From assembly GCA_963698855.1 (NCBI GenBank), contig CAVOSK010000006.1:80661-144660 (forward strand): 64,000 nucleotides of DNA. Direction: 5' to 3'. The notes beneath the pieces are model-generated. The model did no database searches and was not told the DNA's origin. It saw only the letters and a program-made list of their open reading frames with translations. Below are positions 56,997 to 61,581 of this stretch, piece by piece. A program made the translations under genes and the position numbers. The stretch's first letter is position 1, and the number at the start of each line of letters is the position of its first letter. Origin of the DNA: an uncultured beta proteobacterium. GTDB taxonomy: Bacteria; Pseudomonadota; Gammaproteobacteria; Burkholderiales; Thiobacillaceae.

Positions 56997-58153
56997 CTAT
57001 AGAGAGGTTTCGTGAATGATTTTCCAGCGGCCGTTTTCGCGGCTCCAGAATTGGCGTTTGAGGGTGCGGTCGCTGAGGTTGCTGCTCTGGTAATCCTGCA
57101 CGAAGCTGACCAGGGCGAAGTCGGGACGCTCAGGGTAGAGCATCAGGCTGATCTTGCTGAGTCCTACCTTGATCCATGACTTGCTGGCGTTGACCTTGTG
57201 CTTGCTGGCACCAAAGGCCTGCAGATCCTGCGAACCGGTGCGGAACGATGCGCTGTAGTGGCCAAGCAGGCGGGCGGTGTCGCGGCTTTCCCAGTCCTGC
57301 CGCCACTGGTCGAGCGCCGCAGCGAGGTCGTTGCGGCGCGTATCGAGCGCGTCGTAGGCCACCCATTCGACCTGTTCGGCGATGACGACGGGCGTCTTGC
57401 CTGTCTTGACGTACTGGCCGAGCCGGGTCAGATCGTCGTTGGCCAGCACCACGCAGCCTTCGCTGGCGCGGGGTGTGCGGCTGTAGGTATTGCTGCGGGC
57501 TGCCATGGATCCAGATGCCATGGCCGTTGCGGCCCTGTCGGGTATCCCATTCGTTGGGGTAGGACAGGGTGAAGGCGCCGCTGCCGTAGAAATCGGCGAG
57601 TTCGCGCGGTGACTTGAAACCCGAAATCGTGTAGATGCCGATCGGAGTGCGGTTGTCGCCTTCCTTCTGCTTGCCGGCGCCCGCCTTGCCGATGGTGACG
57701 TAGAAATCGGCCACGCGGAACGGCAAGCCAGAACGATTCTCGTAGACATACAGGCGCGAGCGGCTGGCATCGACCACCAGTGCATGCCGATAACTTTCGT
57801 CCAGATCCAGCAGGTAGACGGGGATCTTGTCATCGGGCGGCGAATCGGTCGCAGCGCGCACGCGCTGGCGCGCTTCATCGCGCAGTTGCTCCAGATCGGC
57901 ATTACGGGAATTGCCGGTGTTGCCCAGGGTGTGCAGACGGCTGCGCACGCGCGAGCAACAGGTCGCCCTTGATCAGCTGCGCCAGCCTGAAATTCGAATG
58001 CTGCTGCGTCAACTGGTCGACGGCAGTGAGCGCCTCCGGCATGCGGCCCTGCGAAACGGCCAGCAGGCTGTCGACCAACTGGCGGTCGGCATCCGGCCCG
58101 GCTGCGTGGAGCGCCGGGGTCGCAAGCAGGAGCGCGAGCAGCAGGTGGCGCAT
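56997..58153 (-). CDS. L,D-transpeptidase family protein with C-terminal NTF2-like domain (frameshifts near 57955 and 57495)
   Basis: [27 protein letters not shown]...ASEGCVVL catalytic His/Cys. Confidence 0.85.
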
Positions 58154-58155
58154 GA

Positions 58156-59106
58156 TTACCGGGTCGATTCTTTAACGATGCGCCACTGGCCGTTCTGCAT
58201 GGCCAACTCCAGCGTCTTCGTGACGGTGGAACGGTGGCGGTCGGAACGGTAAGCCTGGCGGAAGGTGGCTTTGGCGGTGTCGCCCTGCGGGTCGATCTTG
58301 AGGTCACTGATCTTGACCTCGATCGTCTTGGGGCTGGTGATGCGCGCGCGACGCTGCGCTTCCCACTGGCTGCGGGTCATGCCATCCGCCGCGTAGTCGT
58401 CGGCATAGGCCGCAAGGTAGGCGTCGACGTCCTTTGCCGACCAGGCTTTCGCCCACGCGGTGATCGCGGCATCGATCGCGCTTTCTGGCGAGGCAGTAGC
58501 GGGCGTGCCCGGTTTCGCGGCAGCAGGGTTGGCGGCGGCCATCTTGGCTTCGGTCTTCGGCGCGGTGCTCGCGGGTTTGGTCGCCGCCGGCTTGCGGGGC
58601 TGCCCTTGGATCATCTCCTGGATCAGCGCCAGTTTGGTTTGCGCCGTGGCATTCTTGCTGTCCAGTTCGAGCGCCTTGTCGTAGGCGATCGACGCCATCT
58701 TGGCGTAGATGTCGCCTAGGTTTTCGTGCGCGGTGGCGTAGCTCGGATGCGTGCGGATGGCCATTTCGAGTGCGTTCTTCGCCGCATCGTACTTGCCTTG
58801 CGAGGCGTAGAGCACGGCAAGATTGTTGTAGGGCTCGGGCAGTTCGGGGTAGTCCTCGGTCAGTCCGCTAAACACGGCGATGGCATCGTTGGTCTTGCCC
58901 TGATCGGCAAGGATCAGGCCCTTGAGAAAGCGTGCCTGGGCATCTTTCGGGTTTTTCGCAAGATAGCGGTCGGCGCGTTCGAGCGCGCCAGGCAAGTCCC
59001 CTTTGCGAAATTGCTGGTTGATTTCCTGAACTTCGTTGGCCAGAACGGGTGCGCTGATAAGTATGGCGCAGGTGGCAAGGGCGGCGAAGAAACGGGACAG
59101 GACCAT
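58156..59106 (-). CDS. Exported TPR protein with C-terminal NTF2-like domain
   Basis: TPR motifs (YPELPEPYNNLAVLY, AHENLGDIY); WAKAWSAKDVDAYL. Confidence 0.85.
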   Translation of the reverse strand: MVLSRFFAALATCAILISAPVLANEVQEINQQFRKGDLPGALERADRYLAKNPKDAQARFLKGLILADQGKTNDAIAVFSGLTEDYPELPEPYNNLAVLYASQGKYDAAKNALEMAIRTHPSYATAHENLGDIYAKMASIAYDKALELDSKNATAQTKLALIQEMIQGQPRKPAATKPASTAPKTEAKMAAANPAAAKPGTPATASPESAIDAAITAWAKAWSAKDVDAYLAAYADDYAADGMTRSQWEAQRRARITSPKTIEVKISDLKIDPQGDTAKATFRQAYRSDRHRSTVTKTLELAMQNGQWRIVKESTR

Positions 59107-59225
59107 GTGATATGCTCGGATCATCTTGGGAGTCTGGCATTCTAACAACATCGACCCGACTGAGACAGTCGCCGCCCTGCTTGATTCCCGTGTGTCCCCA
59201 TTTCCGTCCGTAGCCTGCTTGCACC

Positions 59226-60605: not shown

Positions 60606-60638
60606 GAAAAAGGGGACGGCGCTGCCGTCCCCTTTTTT
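60606..60638. terminator. Bidirectional terminator
   Basis: AAAAAGGGGACGGC-GCT-GCCGTCCCCTTTTT. Confidence 0.88.
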
Positions 60639-60658: not shown

Positions 60659-61450
60659 TTACTGGGCGGGTGCGGCCGGTGCTGCTGTGGGTGCCGGCAT
60701 GAAGGCAGCCGGGTTGAACATCTGCAGCAATACGTTCGGGTCGAACGGGTTCGGGTAGGCGGCAGGTGCGCCCGCAGCCGGAGCGGCAACCGGAGCAGCC
60801 ATTGCGCCATAGGTGGCCGGATTCAACCAGGTGCCCCAGGTGCCATAGGTGGCGGGATTCATCGAGGCGCCCATCCAGCTGGTGTACAGAGCGGGGTTCA
60901 GGGGCTGCATCGACAACTGCATCAGACGCGGGTCCATTGGAGCCATCATCCACTTCATGTACATCGCGGGATTCAGGGTCTGCATGGCCATGTTGAGCGT
61001 TTGCGGATCCAGCGGCGACATCATCCAGCGCATGTATTTGCCGGGATCGAGCATCGGGGCCATCATCGCAGTGTAGAAGTTGGGATCCATCGAAGCGGCC
61101 ATCCACTTCATGTACATGTCGGGGTCGGCAAACTGCATGTAGTTGGCCAGCGAGCGCGGATCCATCATCGAACCCATCATCTTGTACCAGTTGCCTGGCT
61201 CCATCATGTTGATGCCCATCTGCGAGTAGAAGCTGGGCTCGGTCACGGCGTTGAACCAGGGCACGAACACCTTGGGGTCACGGTAGGCCGACGCATTGCG
61301 GGTAAAGTCGGTCATGCGCTCCAGCCACTGGGCACTGGTTTGCGGCGTGGCGGGGGCTGCGGCAGGGGCTGCAGCGGGTGCGGTACCATTGGCGAAAGCA
61401 GCGGAAACGGAAACCATTCCAAGGGCGAGAACAAGGGATTTCATTTTCAT
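60659..61450 (-). CDS. Secreted Met-rich repeat protein of unknown function
   Basis: GAAGGAG RBS, Sec signal ending AFA, 12 tandem 12-13-aa [DNE]P repeats, Ala/Pro tails, own terminator. Confidence 0.88.
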   Translation of the reverse strand: MKMKSLVLALGMVSVSAAFANGTAPAAAPAAAPATPQTSAQWLERMTDFTRNASAYRDPKVFVPWFNAVTEPSFYSQMGINMMEPGNWYKMMGSMMDPRSLANYMQFADPDMYMKWMAASMDPNFYTAMMAPMLDPGKYMRWMMSPLDPQTLNMAMQTLNPAMYMKWMMAPMDPRLMQLSMQPLNPALYTSWMGASMNPATYGTWGTWLNPATYGAMAAPVAAPAAGAPAAYPNPFDPNVLLQMFNPAAFMPAPTAAPAAPAQ

Positions 61451-61488
61451 GGACGACTCCTTCGGGGTTGATCAAACAAACAAGACAC

Positions 61489-61519
61489 AAACAAGATACG
61501 TAGATCCAGTATCTTGTTT
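61489..61519. promoter_or_regulatory. Perfect 11-bp inverted repeat in the predicted 5' UTR
   Basis: AAACAAGATAC-N9-GTATCTTGTTT. Confidence 0.6.
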
Positions 61520-61540
61520 ATATCAGCATATTGTCAATGC

Positions 61541-61581
61541 CTTATATTGGAGTTTGTTTATACTTGATTGATAATAATCAA
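61541..61581 (-). promoter_or_regulatory. FNR-type class II promoter for the Met-rich gene
   Basis: Perfect TTGAT-AATA-ATCAA at 61568-61581 and a minus-strand -10 TATAAG at 61546-61541, placing the box near -41.5. Confidence 0.75.

What the first reader, a model, noticed from the sequence alone, without database searches (positions are those of the whole stretch)
60659..61450. Secreted Met-rich solenoid-like repeat protein: candidate copper store or sulfur-globule/inclusion protein
Seen: after a Sec signal and an Ala/Pro linker come 12 tandem units of 12-13 aa, each opening with D/N/E-P (DPKVFVPWFNAVT, EPSFYSQMGINMM, EPGNWYKMMGSMM, DPRSLANYMQFA, DPDMYMKWMAASM, DPNFYTAMMAPML, DPGKYMRWMMSPL, DPQTLNMAMQTL, NPAMYMKWMMAPM, DPRLMQLSMQPL, NPALYTSWMGASM, NPATYGTWGTWL). 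By hand count there are ~36 Met in 263 aa, regular Tyr/Trp at positions 5 and 8, and no Cys or His. It is monocistronic with a strong RBS and terminator. Established: Met clusters bind Cu(I)/Ag(I) in the periplasm; Allochromatium sulfur-globule envelope proteins are secreted, repetitive and Cys-free; surface Met scavenges oxidants. Inference: an abundant periplasmic Met-lined helical-repeat protein for Cu supply to anaerobic respiratory enzymes or for coating hydrophobic sulfur. I do not recognise it as a named family.
Basis: partly seen in the sequence, partly recalled or inferred. Interest (0 to 1): 0.8.

Follow-up and report, generated by a model that had tools for sequence, protein, structure and literature searches.

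The report
Secreted methionine-rich helical repeat protein
A Thiobacillus genome encodes a heavily transcribed, exported protein built of short methionine- and aromatic-rich helices; it belongs to an undescribed multi-copy family whose relatives sit inside sulfur-oxidation gene clusters, so it most likely handles greasy elemental sulfur in the periplasm rather than copper.

Summary
The ORF is on the minus strand, 263 aa, with 36 Met and no Cys or His. It has a Sec signal and 12 consecutive D/N/E-P units of 12-13 aa (0 of 20,000 shuffles). It also has its own promoter, an AAGGAG ribosome-binding site and a strong hairpin terminator.

No Pfam, NCBIfam, PDB-sequence or Foldseek match exists. AlphaFold2 confidently predicts a stack of about 17 short Pro-capped helices.

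The family is centred on the Thiobacillaceae, where 76 of 121 genomes carry 1-12 copies; this genome has six. About half of the homologues carry a C-terminal OmpA-like peptidoglycan-binding domain, and a few carry BON. Distant relatives keep the motifs but are Met-poor.

In four metatranscriptomes, contig depth on this gene is 5-95, against about 0-3 on its neighbours.

No homologue context examined contains copper or Msr genes. The Mla adjacency is incidental. In two or more other genomes, clear family members (47-53% identical) lie between the sulfide dehydrogenase flavoprotein gene (fccB) and soxYZ.

My best reading (about 0.4) is an abundant periplasmic binder or matrix for zero-valent sulfur. 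This is indirect and untested.

The parts
60659..61450 (-). CDS of the 263-aa Met-rich repeat protein (stop codon at 60659-60661)
61391..61450 (-). Sec signal peptide, residues 1-20, with predicted cleavage AFA|NG
   Evidence: Read from the sequence. The AF2 model has helix 3-20. No lipobox.
61337..61390 (-). Ala/Pro-rich linker, residues 21-38
   Evidence: Sequence; low pLDDT
61280..61336 (-). Conserved N-terminal cap motif WLxRMTDFTxNASAxxDP, residues 39-57. It is kept even in Met-poor distant relatives.
60785..61279 (-). Repeat array, residues 58-222: 13 Pro-capped short helices in alternating 13- and 12-residue units. Consensus [D/N]-P-x-h-Y-(M/T)-x-W-M-x-A-(M/P)-M.
60662..60784 (-). Ala/Pro-rich C-terminal tail carrying the conserved motif NPFDPNVLLQMFNPAAF (60701-60751). 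The tail ends in Gln here and in Lys in 34 of 51 stand-alone homologues. In about half of the family an OmpA_C domain follows at this point.
61457..61462 (-). Shine-Dalgarno AAGGAG, conserved in orthologues
61508..61537 (-). Sigma-70-type promoter: -35 TTGACA (61532-61537), 18-nt spacer, -10 GATACT (61508-61513). The -35 is invariant in 19 orthologous loci.
61520..61547 (.). Conserved palindrome ATATCAG-N13-CTGATAT (ATATAAG in this genome) bracketing the -35. Candidate regulator site.
61568..61581 (.). Perfect FNR/CRP-type box TTGAT-N4-ATCAA, 125 nt upstream of the start codon. It is one of only 5 in the 3.0-Mb genome and is kept only in the closest orthologues.
60612..60632 (.). Bidirectional intrinsic terminator hairpin between the convergent cysS and this gene

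Best explanation
The gene encodes an abundant, Sec-exported periplasmic protein of an undescribed family centred on the Thiobacillaceae.

Structure and family.
- Residues about 40-220 form a stack (solenoid) of short Pro-capped alpha-helices. Their packing face is a ladder of Tyr/Trp and Met (thioether) side chains, and the protein carries very little charge.
- The domain occurs alone, as here, with an Ala/Pro tail. In about half of the family it is tethered by an Ala/Pro linker to an OmpA-like peptidoglycan-binding domain, or to BON. I therefore place its action in the periplasm, at or near the cell wall.

Proposed function. I propose that this large, soft, uncharged thioether/aromatic surface binds hydrophobic zero-valent sulfur (S8 or polysulfane) non-covalently. 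Flavocytochrome c sulfide dehydrogenase and the Sox system make this sulfur in the periplasm. The protein would keep it dispersed and pass it on to SoxYZ, rhodanese or DsrE-type carriers. It would be a carrier or matrix, not an enzyme.

Shown:
- export signal and repeat anatomy;
- predicted fold;
- family distribution, paralogy and fusions;
- high transcription;
- sox/fcc linkage of paralogous family members.

Inferred:
- periplasmic retention;
- the ligand;
- that this cysS-adjacent paralogue shares the function of the sox-linked ones.
For: (1) Family members lie inside sulfur-oxidation clusters. They are 53% identical to the query over 171 aa (E 3e-45) and 47% over 199 aa (E 2e-56). The order is cytochrome c, fccB, [family member], soxY, soxZ, rhodanese, Met-rich DUF302, hyper-Met proteins. 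This was seen in at least two genomes, with 15 similar places not shown.

(2) The Met-rich DUF302 plus hyper-Met pair recurs beside SoxB-like, DsrE, SoxA/TsdA and nap genes.

(3) In this genome, two of the three Met-rich DUF302 genes lie directly upstream of fccAB, confirmed with PF21706 and PF09242. The third lies next to a hyper-Met NP-repeat protein that ends ...AAAPAK, the ending common in the query's stand-alone homologues. It matches the family profile weakly (probability 79%, E 1.5e-5). Related hyper-Met proteins in L107/L109 also carry the query's C-terminal NPFDP motif.

(4) The family is essentially confined to sulfur- and iron-oxidising Betaproteobacteria: Thiobacillaceae, Hydrogenophilales-labelled and Gallionellaceae MAGs, and Parasulfuritortus. 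It was found in 76 of 121 genomes of the family but only 4 of 251 genomes sampled across the order.

(5) Expression and copy number are high. There are 3-12 paralogues in most carrier genomes. Metatranscriptome depth from sediment and estuary runs far exceeds that of neighbours, for this gene (15-95 in three runs, up to 5 in a fourth) and for paralogue 3 (up to 68).

(6) The composition suits a hydrophobic, polarisable ligand. It is Cys- and His-free and 9.9% charged (59th lowest of 2109 ORFs), and Met and aromatic residues share one helix face.

(7) Met enrichment covers core-like, small-residue and some polar columns. This suggests selection for Met content as such.
Against: - The query's own paralogue group has no sulfur genes nearby. 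It sits between cysS and the mla operon, and that position is only a presence/absence cassette site.
- Many genomes of the same genus lack every family member. If, as their taxonomy suggests (not checked here), they still oxidise sulfur, the family is accessory.
- Met-poor relatives share the motifs and presumably the fold, so the fold itself does not need Met.
- Peptidoglycan tethering is not specifically predicted by a sulfur-carrier role.
- Thiobacillaceae are not known for periplasmic sulfur globules (own knowledge).
- No binding data exist.
- The RNA runs were chosen because they contain words of this gene, and contig depth is a poor measure of expression.
Confidence: 0.4

Rival explanations
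1. Rechargeable methionine redox buffer. The abundant periplasmic Met residues would be sacrificially oxidised by reactive oxygen, chlorine or nitrogen species and re-reduced by MsrPQ, as for MrpX.
For: - High Met content.
- The genome has two msrPQ pairs.
- It also has a separate (GMSGM)n protein in front of a Tat molybdo-oxidoreductase operon.
- Enrichment looks like selection for Met as such.
Against: - No family gene is adjacent to msrPQ or to SigF/NrsF-type regulators. One OmpA-fusion homologue follows an ECF sigma gene.
- The composition is unlike MrpX, which has 20% Met plus 44% charged residues (PMC4436054). This protein has 9.9% charged residues and a confident fold.
- Most Met lie on the packing face.
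- A perfect FNR-type box suggests anaerobic expression.
Confidence: 0.15
2. Periplasmic Cu(I)/Ag(I) sponge or chaperone. Met clusters, capped by Trp, would bind soft metal ions.
For: - Met-only and Met/Trp Cu(I) sites are established in CusF, CusB and Ctr1 (own knowledge).
- W-M pairs recur in every 13-mer.
- The location is periplasmic, and expression is high with possible anaerobic control.
Against: - No cop/cus/pco/sil/nos neighbour occurs in about 12 contexts.
- There is no His or Cys.
- There are no metal-domain fusions.
- Trp and Tyr are conserved in Met-poor relatives, so they are structural.
- Same-genus genomes lack the family entirely.
Confidence: 0.08
3. Met-lined 'helical hand' holdase for hydrophobic peptides or lipids: unfolded outer-membrane proteins, lipoprotein acyl chains, phospholipid or hopanoid. 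This would be analogous to STI1/DP domains, Sgt2-C and the SRP54 M domain.
For: - D-P-capped short amphipathic helices with a Met-rich hydrophobic face, as described for STI1/Sgt2-C (PMC8010706).
- Fused or paralogous members lie near envelope-lipid genes: MMPL, AsmA and Mla.
- OmpA_C and BON fusions.
Against: - No sequence or fold similarity to STI1 or SRP54-M.
- The Mla adjacency is incidental.
- 3-12 paralogues and a narrow taxonomic range are unusual for a general chaperone.
- The model is a long, confident solenoid, not a flexible five-helix hand.
Confidence: 0.12
4. Purely structural periplasmic or cell-wall protein (spacer, tether or matrix). Met enrichment would be a lineage quirk with no ligand function.
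For: - OmpA_C or BON fusions in about half of the family.
- Ala/Pro linkers.
- A C-terminal Lys in 34 of 51 stand-alone members, reminiscent of Lpp's peptidoglycan-linking Lys.
- Very high expression.
- Met-poor relatives keep the same motifs.
Against: - The query ends in Gln, not Lys.
- There is no lipid anchor.
- The polar C-terminal residue may only protect against tail-specific protease (inference).
- This does not explain 8-18% Met, or the co-occurrence with other hyper-Met proteins and sox/fcc genes.
Confidence: 0.15

Closest known systems
Sulfur globule proteins SgpA-D of Allochromatium vinosum
   Same: Both are Sec-exported, Cys-free, repetitive, abundant and multi-paralogue. Both are lineage-restricted proteins of a sulfur oxidiser that lacks SoxCD-type complete periplasmic oxidation. 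Both have a proposed non-enzymatic role around hydrophobic S0.
   Different: No homology was established (no Sgp sequence was compared here). This family is a confidently predicted alpha-solenoid with a Met/aromatic ladder. It is often fused to peptidoglycan-binding domains. Thiobacillaceae are not known to store globules.
MrpX with YedYZ/MsrPQ (Azospira suillum; PMC4436054)
   Same: Exported, Met-rich, Cys-free periplasmic protein. MsrPQ is present in the genome.
   Different: MrpX is small, with 20% Met and 44% charged residues, and is co-operonic with msrPQ under SigF/NrsF. This protein is 263 aa, 9.9% charged and predicted to fold, and it is unlinked to msrPQ.
Periplasmic Met-rich Cu(I)/Ag(I) binders (CusF, CopC/PcoC, PcoE/SilE, CopK)
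   Same: Periplasmic location. Met, with Trp, as potential soft ligands.
   Different: No sequence or fold similarity, no His, no metal-resistance gene context and a different architecture.
STI1/DP domains, Sgt2/SGTA C-domain and the SRP54 M domain (Met-rich helical hands; PMC8010706)
   Same: Short amphipathic helices opened by Asp-Pro. A Met-rich hydrophobic face thought to give a malleable binding surface.
   Different: Those domains are cytosolic, five-helix and about 60 aa. No detectable homology. This protein is a 17-helix periplasmic array.
OmpA_C-type peptidoglycan-associated proteins (PF00691) and BON-domain proteins (PF04972)
   Same: About half of the family, including paralogue C7:1467982-1469373 of this genome, carries these C-terminal domains after an Ala/Pro hinge.
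   Different: The query itself lacks them. The N-terminal Met-rich domain is unrelated to the OmpA beta-barrel.
DUF302 (PF03625) genes noted in sox operons (PMC5248467)
   Same: Function unknown but repeatedly linked to sulfur-oxidation loci. In this lineage the DUF302 proteins carry Met-rich N-terminal halves and sit beside hyper-Met proteins and family members.
   Different: A different fold and family. It is a neighbour or partner, not a homologue.

Membership tests
MrpX-type methionine-rich peptide | Small exported peptide, about 20% Met plus about 44% charged residues, little structure | tested here: not met
   13.7% Met, 9.9% charged, 263 aa. AF2 pLDDT is above 90 over residues 40-190. 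MrpX features come from PMC4436054.
MrpX-type methionine-rich peptide | Co-operonic with yedYZ/msrPQ under SigF/NrsF | tested here: not met
   msrPQ lies at two unlinked loci. No msr genes occur in about 12 homologue contexts.
MrpX-type methionine-rich peptide | Met oxidised by HOCl and re-reduced by MsrP | not testable with these tools
   Needs biochemistry.
Periplasmic Cu(I)/Ag(I) binders (CusF, CopC, PcoE/SilE, CopK) | Sequence or fold membership | tested here: not met
   No Pfam or NCBIfam hit. No PDB sequence hit to the repeat domain. No Foldseek hit; best E 3.6.
Periplasmic Cu(I)/Ag(I) binders (CusF, CopC, PcoE/SilE, CopK) | Location in cop/cus/pco/sil operons or next to metal regulators | tested here: not met
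Periplasmic Cu(I)/Ag(I) binders (CusF, CopC, PcoE/SilE, CopK) | Measured Cu(I)/Ag(I) binding | not testable with these tools
   Needs BCA/BCS competition assays and ICP-MS.
Sulfur globule proteins (Sgp) | Sec-exported, Cys-free, repetitive, abundant, several paralogues | tested here: met
Sulfur globule proteins (Sgp) | Sequence homology to SgpA-D | not tested
No family library matched.
Sulfur globule proteins (Sgp) | Physical association with S0 deposits | not testable with these tools
   Needs fractionation and proteomics.
STI1/DP and SRP54-M type Met-rich helical hands | Asp-Pro-capped short amphipathic helices with a Met-rich hydrophobic face | tested here: met
   description in PMC8010706
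STI1/DP and SRP54-M type Met-rich helical hands | Detectable sequence or fold homology | tested here: not met
OmpA_C peptidoglycan-binding proteins (PF00691) | Presence of the OmpA_C domain | tested here: not met
   Absent from the query. Present in paralogue C7:1467982-1469373 and in about half of the homologues.
Lpp-type covalent peptidoglycan linkage | C-terminal Lys and N-terminal lipid anchor | tested here: not met
   The query ends in Gln. 34 of 51 stand-alone homologues end in Lys. No lipobox in 263 sequences.

The most novel reading that the evidence does not exclude
The family would found a class of cysteine-free 'thioether/aromatic ladder' alpha-solenoid proteins. These would hold zero-valent sulfur (S8 or polysulfane) non-covalently in the periplasm and would be partly tethered to peptidoglycan. 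Together with Met-rich DUF302 proteins and hyper-Met NP-repeat proteins, they would form the missing hand-over step. That step links sulfide dehydrogenase/Sox, which produce S0, to the SoxYZ/rhodanese/DsrE-type carriers that feed the cytoplasmic rDsr pathway, in sulfur oxidisers that show no globules.
Probability: 0.3. Interest if true: 0.85.

Novelty: new variant of a known kind. Interest (0 to 1): 0.66.

Why it matters
Thiobacillus-type bacteria drive sulfur-dependent denitrification in sediments, aquifers and wastewater. How they keep hydrophobic zero-valent sulfur soluble and mobile in the periplasm is unresolved.

This family is undescribed, strongly transcribed in situ and multi-copy, and it has a predicted fold with no solved relative. 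It also shows physical gene linkage to fccAB and soxYZ. That makes it a concrete, expressible candidate for the missing step.

If the ligand turns out to be an oxidant or a metal instead, the protein would still be one of the most strongly transcribed periplasmic components detected here for an environmentally important clade, and it has never been studied.

Tried and rejected
- Library and structure searches found nothing for the repeat domain: Pfam and NCBIfam, PDB sequence profile (only the OmpA_C part of fusions) and Foldseek against PDB.
- MrpX membership is rejected on composition and context.
- A functional link to the Mla operon or orf156 is rejected. Synteny holds in about 70 of 80 loci. 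But same-genus genomes without the family have cysS abutting orf156-mlaFED, and orf156 is present in 16 of 16 genomes.
- The neighbourhoods of the five other paralogues in this genome are heterogeneous: ATP-grasp/alpha-E genes, PBP4/DUF3313, glycogen genes and panD, CDF.
- A 5'-UTR hairpin idea is rejected (fold z +1.6).
- The class-level search with alignment A1 was contaminated by its OmpA_C columns. Only hits to profile positions 1-230 count.
- The P0105 'YceI fusion' sits on a 1.2-kb contig and the P0104 'ABC ATPase fusion' also looks wrong. They look like a chimera and a gene-call merge.
- Literature searches for 'methionine-rich' with Thiobacillus, Gallionellaceae or Sideroxydans found no description.
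- Cluster look-ups of distant homologues gave no names.
As a result I could not run the planned NosZ and DUF302 phyletic comparison between carrier and non-carrier genomes. I also could not calibrate RNA depth against rplT and infC in the window.
Full report
**The observation**

The finding's coordinates are exact, but the gene is on the minus strand. The 263-aa product has 36 Met (13.7%), 47 Ala, 33 Pro, 12 Tyr and 9 Trp, and no Cys or His.

It opens with a Sec/SPase-I signal (MKMKSLVLALGMVSVSAAFA|NG) and an Ala/Pro linker. Thirteen D/N/E-P starts then follow at spacings of 13, 13, 13, 12, 13, 13, 13, 12, 13, 12, 13, 12. Twelve consecutive 12/13 spacings never occurred in 20,000 shuffles (maximum 2). 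BLOSUM autocorrelation peaks at lags 13, 25, 38 and 51, with z up to 9, so the true unit is a 13+12 helix pair.

In its own genome (3.0 Mb, 7 contigs, 63% G+C) the protein ranks 5th of 2109 ORFs for Met content and is among the 3% least charged.

The gene has its own expression signals:
- An AAGGAG ribosome-binding site.
- A promoter with a perfect -35 that is invariant in 19 orthologous loci.
- A -29.9 kcal/mol hairpin terminator shared with the convergent cysS.

**What it is structurally**

Pfam and NCBIfam give nothing.

AlphaFold2 was run with a 58-sequence alignment. It gives mean pLDDT 81.8 and pTM 0.62, with pLDDT above 90 over residues 40-190. The model is about 17 helices of 4-12 residues, each beginning at a D/N-P.

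Foldseek finds no PDB relative; the best E is 3.6. A profile search of PDB sequences matches only the OmpA_C part of fused homologues.

I stacked 609 13-mers and 250 12-mers from Met-rich family members. The consensus is [D/N]-P-x-h-Y-(M/T)-x-W-M-x-A-(M/P)-M. Met at positions 9, 12 and 13 lies on the same helical face as the near-invariant Tyr5 and Trp8. The opposite face is small or polar. So most Met form a Met/aromatic ladder on the packing or groove face.

**The family**

- Size. There are 110 homologues among 5.8 billion clustered proteins, and 181 representatives at E<=1e-3 among 1.84 billion.
- Taxa. Named sources are Thiobacillaceae, Thiobacillus, Hydrogenophilales, Gallionellaceae and Parasulfuritortus. 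The closest locus (94% identity) is a Thiobacillus MAG, and the best DNA holder of this stretch is a marine-sediment metagenome run.
- Prevalence. Only 4 of 251 genomes sampled across the order carry it. Within the family, 76 of 121 genomes (12 of 15 genera) carry 1-12 copies, mostly 3-12. Many genomes of the same genus have none at all.
- Paralogues. This genome has six, one of them an OmpA_C fusion.
- Fusions. About half of all homologues have the architecture signal, repeat domain, Ala/Pro linker, OmpA_C. A few carry BON instead. A profile search found no other fusion.
- C-terminus. Stand-alone members end in an Ala/Pro tail whose last residue is Lys in 34 of 51 (Gln 7, Arg 4). The query ends in Gln.
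- Met-poor relatives. Distant homologues (23-35% identity) keep the N-terminal cap motif, the Pro positions and the Tyr/Trp positions, but have only 2-5% Met. At the query's Met columns they carry 54% large hydrophobic, 35% small and 12% polar residues.

Met enrichment is therefore a derived trait of the Thiobacillaceae branch. It is laid over a pre-existing set of fold motifs and spreads over several kinds of position.

**Expression**

Twenty-four metatranscriptome runs hold exact 31-mers of the gene. In four of them I laid contigs at 90% identity or better:
- This gene is covered at summed depth 15-95 in three runs and up to 5 in the fourth.
- cysS, the TPR gene, orf156 and mlaFED get about 0-3.
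- Paralogue 3 behaves the same way, with depth up to 68, while its Met-poor tandem partner does not.

Caveats:
- The runs were selected through this gene's words.
- Logan contig depth is crude.

One point makes the contrast conservative. cysS is more conserved among relatives than this gene, so cross-recruitment of reads should favour cysS.

**Genomic context of this copy**

The arrangement mlaE<-mlaF<-orf156 <> Met-rich gene -> <-cysS holds in about 70 of 80 related loci. In same-genus genomes lacking the family, however, cysS directly abuts orf156-mlaFED on one strand. orf156 is present in 16 of 16 genomes whether or not they carry the family.

The gene is thus a presence/absence cassette of about 0.97 kb, and the Mla adjacency carries no functional message.

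Two candidate regulatory sites lie upstream:
- A perfect FNR-type box at 61568-61581. It is one of five in the genome. One-mismatch boxes precede the genome's Crp/Fnr-family gene and napD.
- A conserved palindrome bracketing the -35.

*Copper.* About 12 distinct contexts of homologues contain no cop, cus, pco, sil or nos genes. There is no His or Cys and no metal-domain fusion.

*Met redox sink.* The genome has two msrPQ pairs, but they are unlinked to the family. The composition is unlike MrpX.

*Helical-hand chaperone.* The Asp-Pro-capped, Met-faced helices resemble the description of STI1/Sgt2-C, but no homology is detectable.

*Sulfur.* A proteome-wide Met ranking exposed further Met-rich secreted proteins in this genome:
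- Three DUF302 proteins with Met-rich N-terminal halves.
- A roughly 35%-Met NP-repeat protein that ends ...AAAPAK, the ending common in the query's stand-alone homologues, and has weak profile similarity.
- A (GMSGM)n ORF in front of a Tat molybdoenzyme operon.

Two of the DUF302 genes lie directly upstream of fccAB sulfide dehydrogenase.

Following DUF302 orthologues into other genomes gave the decisive observation. The cluster order is cytochrome c, fccB, X, soxY, soxZ, rhodanese, Met-rich DUF302, hyper-Met proteins. X is an unmistakable member of the query's family:
- 53% identity over 171 aa, E 3e-45, in L107.
- 47% identity over 199 aa, E 2e-56, in L109.

These comparisons are. A third, more distant locus has the DUF302/hyper-Met pair beside SoxB-like, DsrE, SoxA/TsdA and nap genes.

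**Interpretation**

Solid:
- An exported protein, probably periplasmic, that is strongly transcribed.
- An alpha-helical repeat protein of an undescribed, lineage-restricted, multi-copy family.
- A domain that is frequently tethered to peptidoglycan.

Most likely function (about 0.4): non-covalent binding, dispersal and hand-over of hydrophobic zero-valent sulfur made by FCSD and Sox. This rests on gene linkage of paralogous members, on the taxonomic range and on composition. It does not rest on this copy's own neighbourhood or on any binding data.

Rivals, none excluded:
- Rechargeable Met redox buffer: 0.15.
- Purely structural wall protein: 0.15.
- Holdase for hydrophobic peptides or lipids: 0.12.
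- Cu(I)/Ag(I) sponge: 0.08.

The complete absence of the family from many same-genus genomes shows that it is accessory and that its copies are gained or lost together.

**Earlier notes of this scan**

Earlier notes of this scan described look-alike proteins elsewhere and proposed similar sulfur or STI1-like readings. I treated them as leads only. The fcc/sox linkage, the FNR box and the (GMSGM)n/molybdoenzyme arrangement were checked here on sequence.

**Novelty**

There is no literature description, no family model and no structural relative. Functionally the protein is probably a new variant of known non-enzymatic periplasmic binder or coat proteins, with a new fold.

Noticed in passing
window 61568-61581: A perfect FNR/CRP-type box TTGATAATAATCAA lies in the 117-bp divergent intergenic region. 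It overlaps the first possible start (TTG 61568) of orf156. It is one of 5 perfect boxes in the genome. One-mismatch boxes precede the genome's Crp/Fnr-family gene and napD.
   Followed up: partly
window 61489-61519 and 61520-61547: An 11-bp perfect inverted repeat AAACAAGATAC-N9-GTATCTTGTTT overlaps the -10 and the transcription start. A palindrome ATATCAG-N13-CTGATAT, conserved in orthologues, brackets the -35. No regulator is assigned to either.
   Followed up: partly
window 61568/61583-62038 (+): A 151-156-aa ORF heads the mlaFEDCB operon. It has only a weak N-terminal DUF72 match (E 3.5e-5, below the cut-off). It is present in 16 of 16 same-genus genomes and diverges fast (31-75% identity).
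   Followed up: partly
window 56997-59151 (-): A TPR protein with a Cds6_C NTF2-like C-terminal domain lies next to a probable YkuD L,D-transpeptidase that also has an NTF2-like tail. The pair is conserved beside cysS in relatives.
   Followed up: no
genome C7:827317-829951 (outside the window): An operon of c-type dihaem cytochrome, DUF302 protein with a Met-rich N-terminal half, and a roughly 210-aa secreted protein of about 35% Met (QMMNPAM units, ending ...AAAPAK). The pair recurs in sox/fcc/dsrE loci of other genomes (L107-L110).
   Followed up: partly
genome C1:154191-157062 and C6:62501-65823 (outside the window): Two further Met-rich DUF302 genes lie directly upstream of fccA/fccB sulfide dehydrogenase pairs. 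The first follows the napDAGHB operon.
   Followed up: partly
genome C7:1357053-1367421 (outside the window): A 239-aa ORF made of (GMSGM)n repeats (25% Met) follows a sigma-54 two-component pair. It precedes a Tat molybdopterin oxidoreductase (859 aa), an FeS subunit and a TorD-like gene. This is the arrangement that earlier notes of the scan described in other genomes.
   Followed up: no
L003:3597-3711 (genome C7, about 707306-707420): Very high RNA contig depth (142 in run X25) lies just beyond the 5-formyl-THF cyclo-ligase gene and near a ZapA/ZapB-like gene. This is the classical position of 6S RNA (ssrS).
   Followed up: no
genome C7:705941-706693 (L003/L006): A Met-poor family member (6.8% Met, ending ...PPQRY) lies in tandem directly after Met-rich paralogue 3. 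Distant Met-poor homologues share a C-terminal (P)RY(RY) ending of unknown meaning.
   Followed up: no
P0185: A 1360-aa 'C2 domain-containing protein' of the stick insect Dryococelus australis matches the repeat domain (E 1.5e-14, 26% identity). This is possibly bacterial contamination or a chance repeat similarity in that assembly.
   Followed up: no
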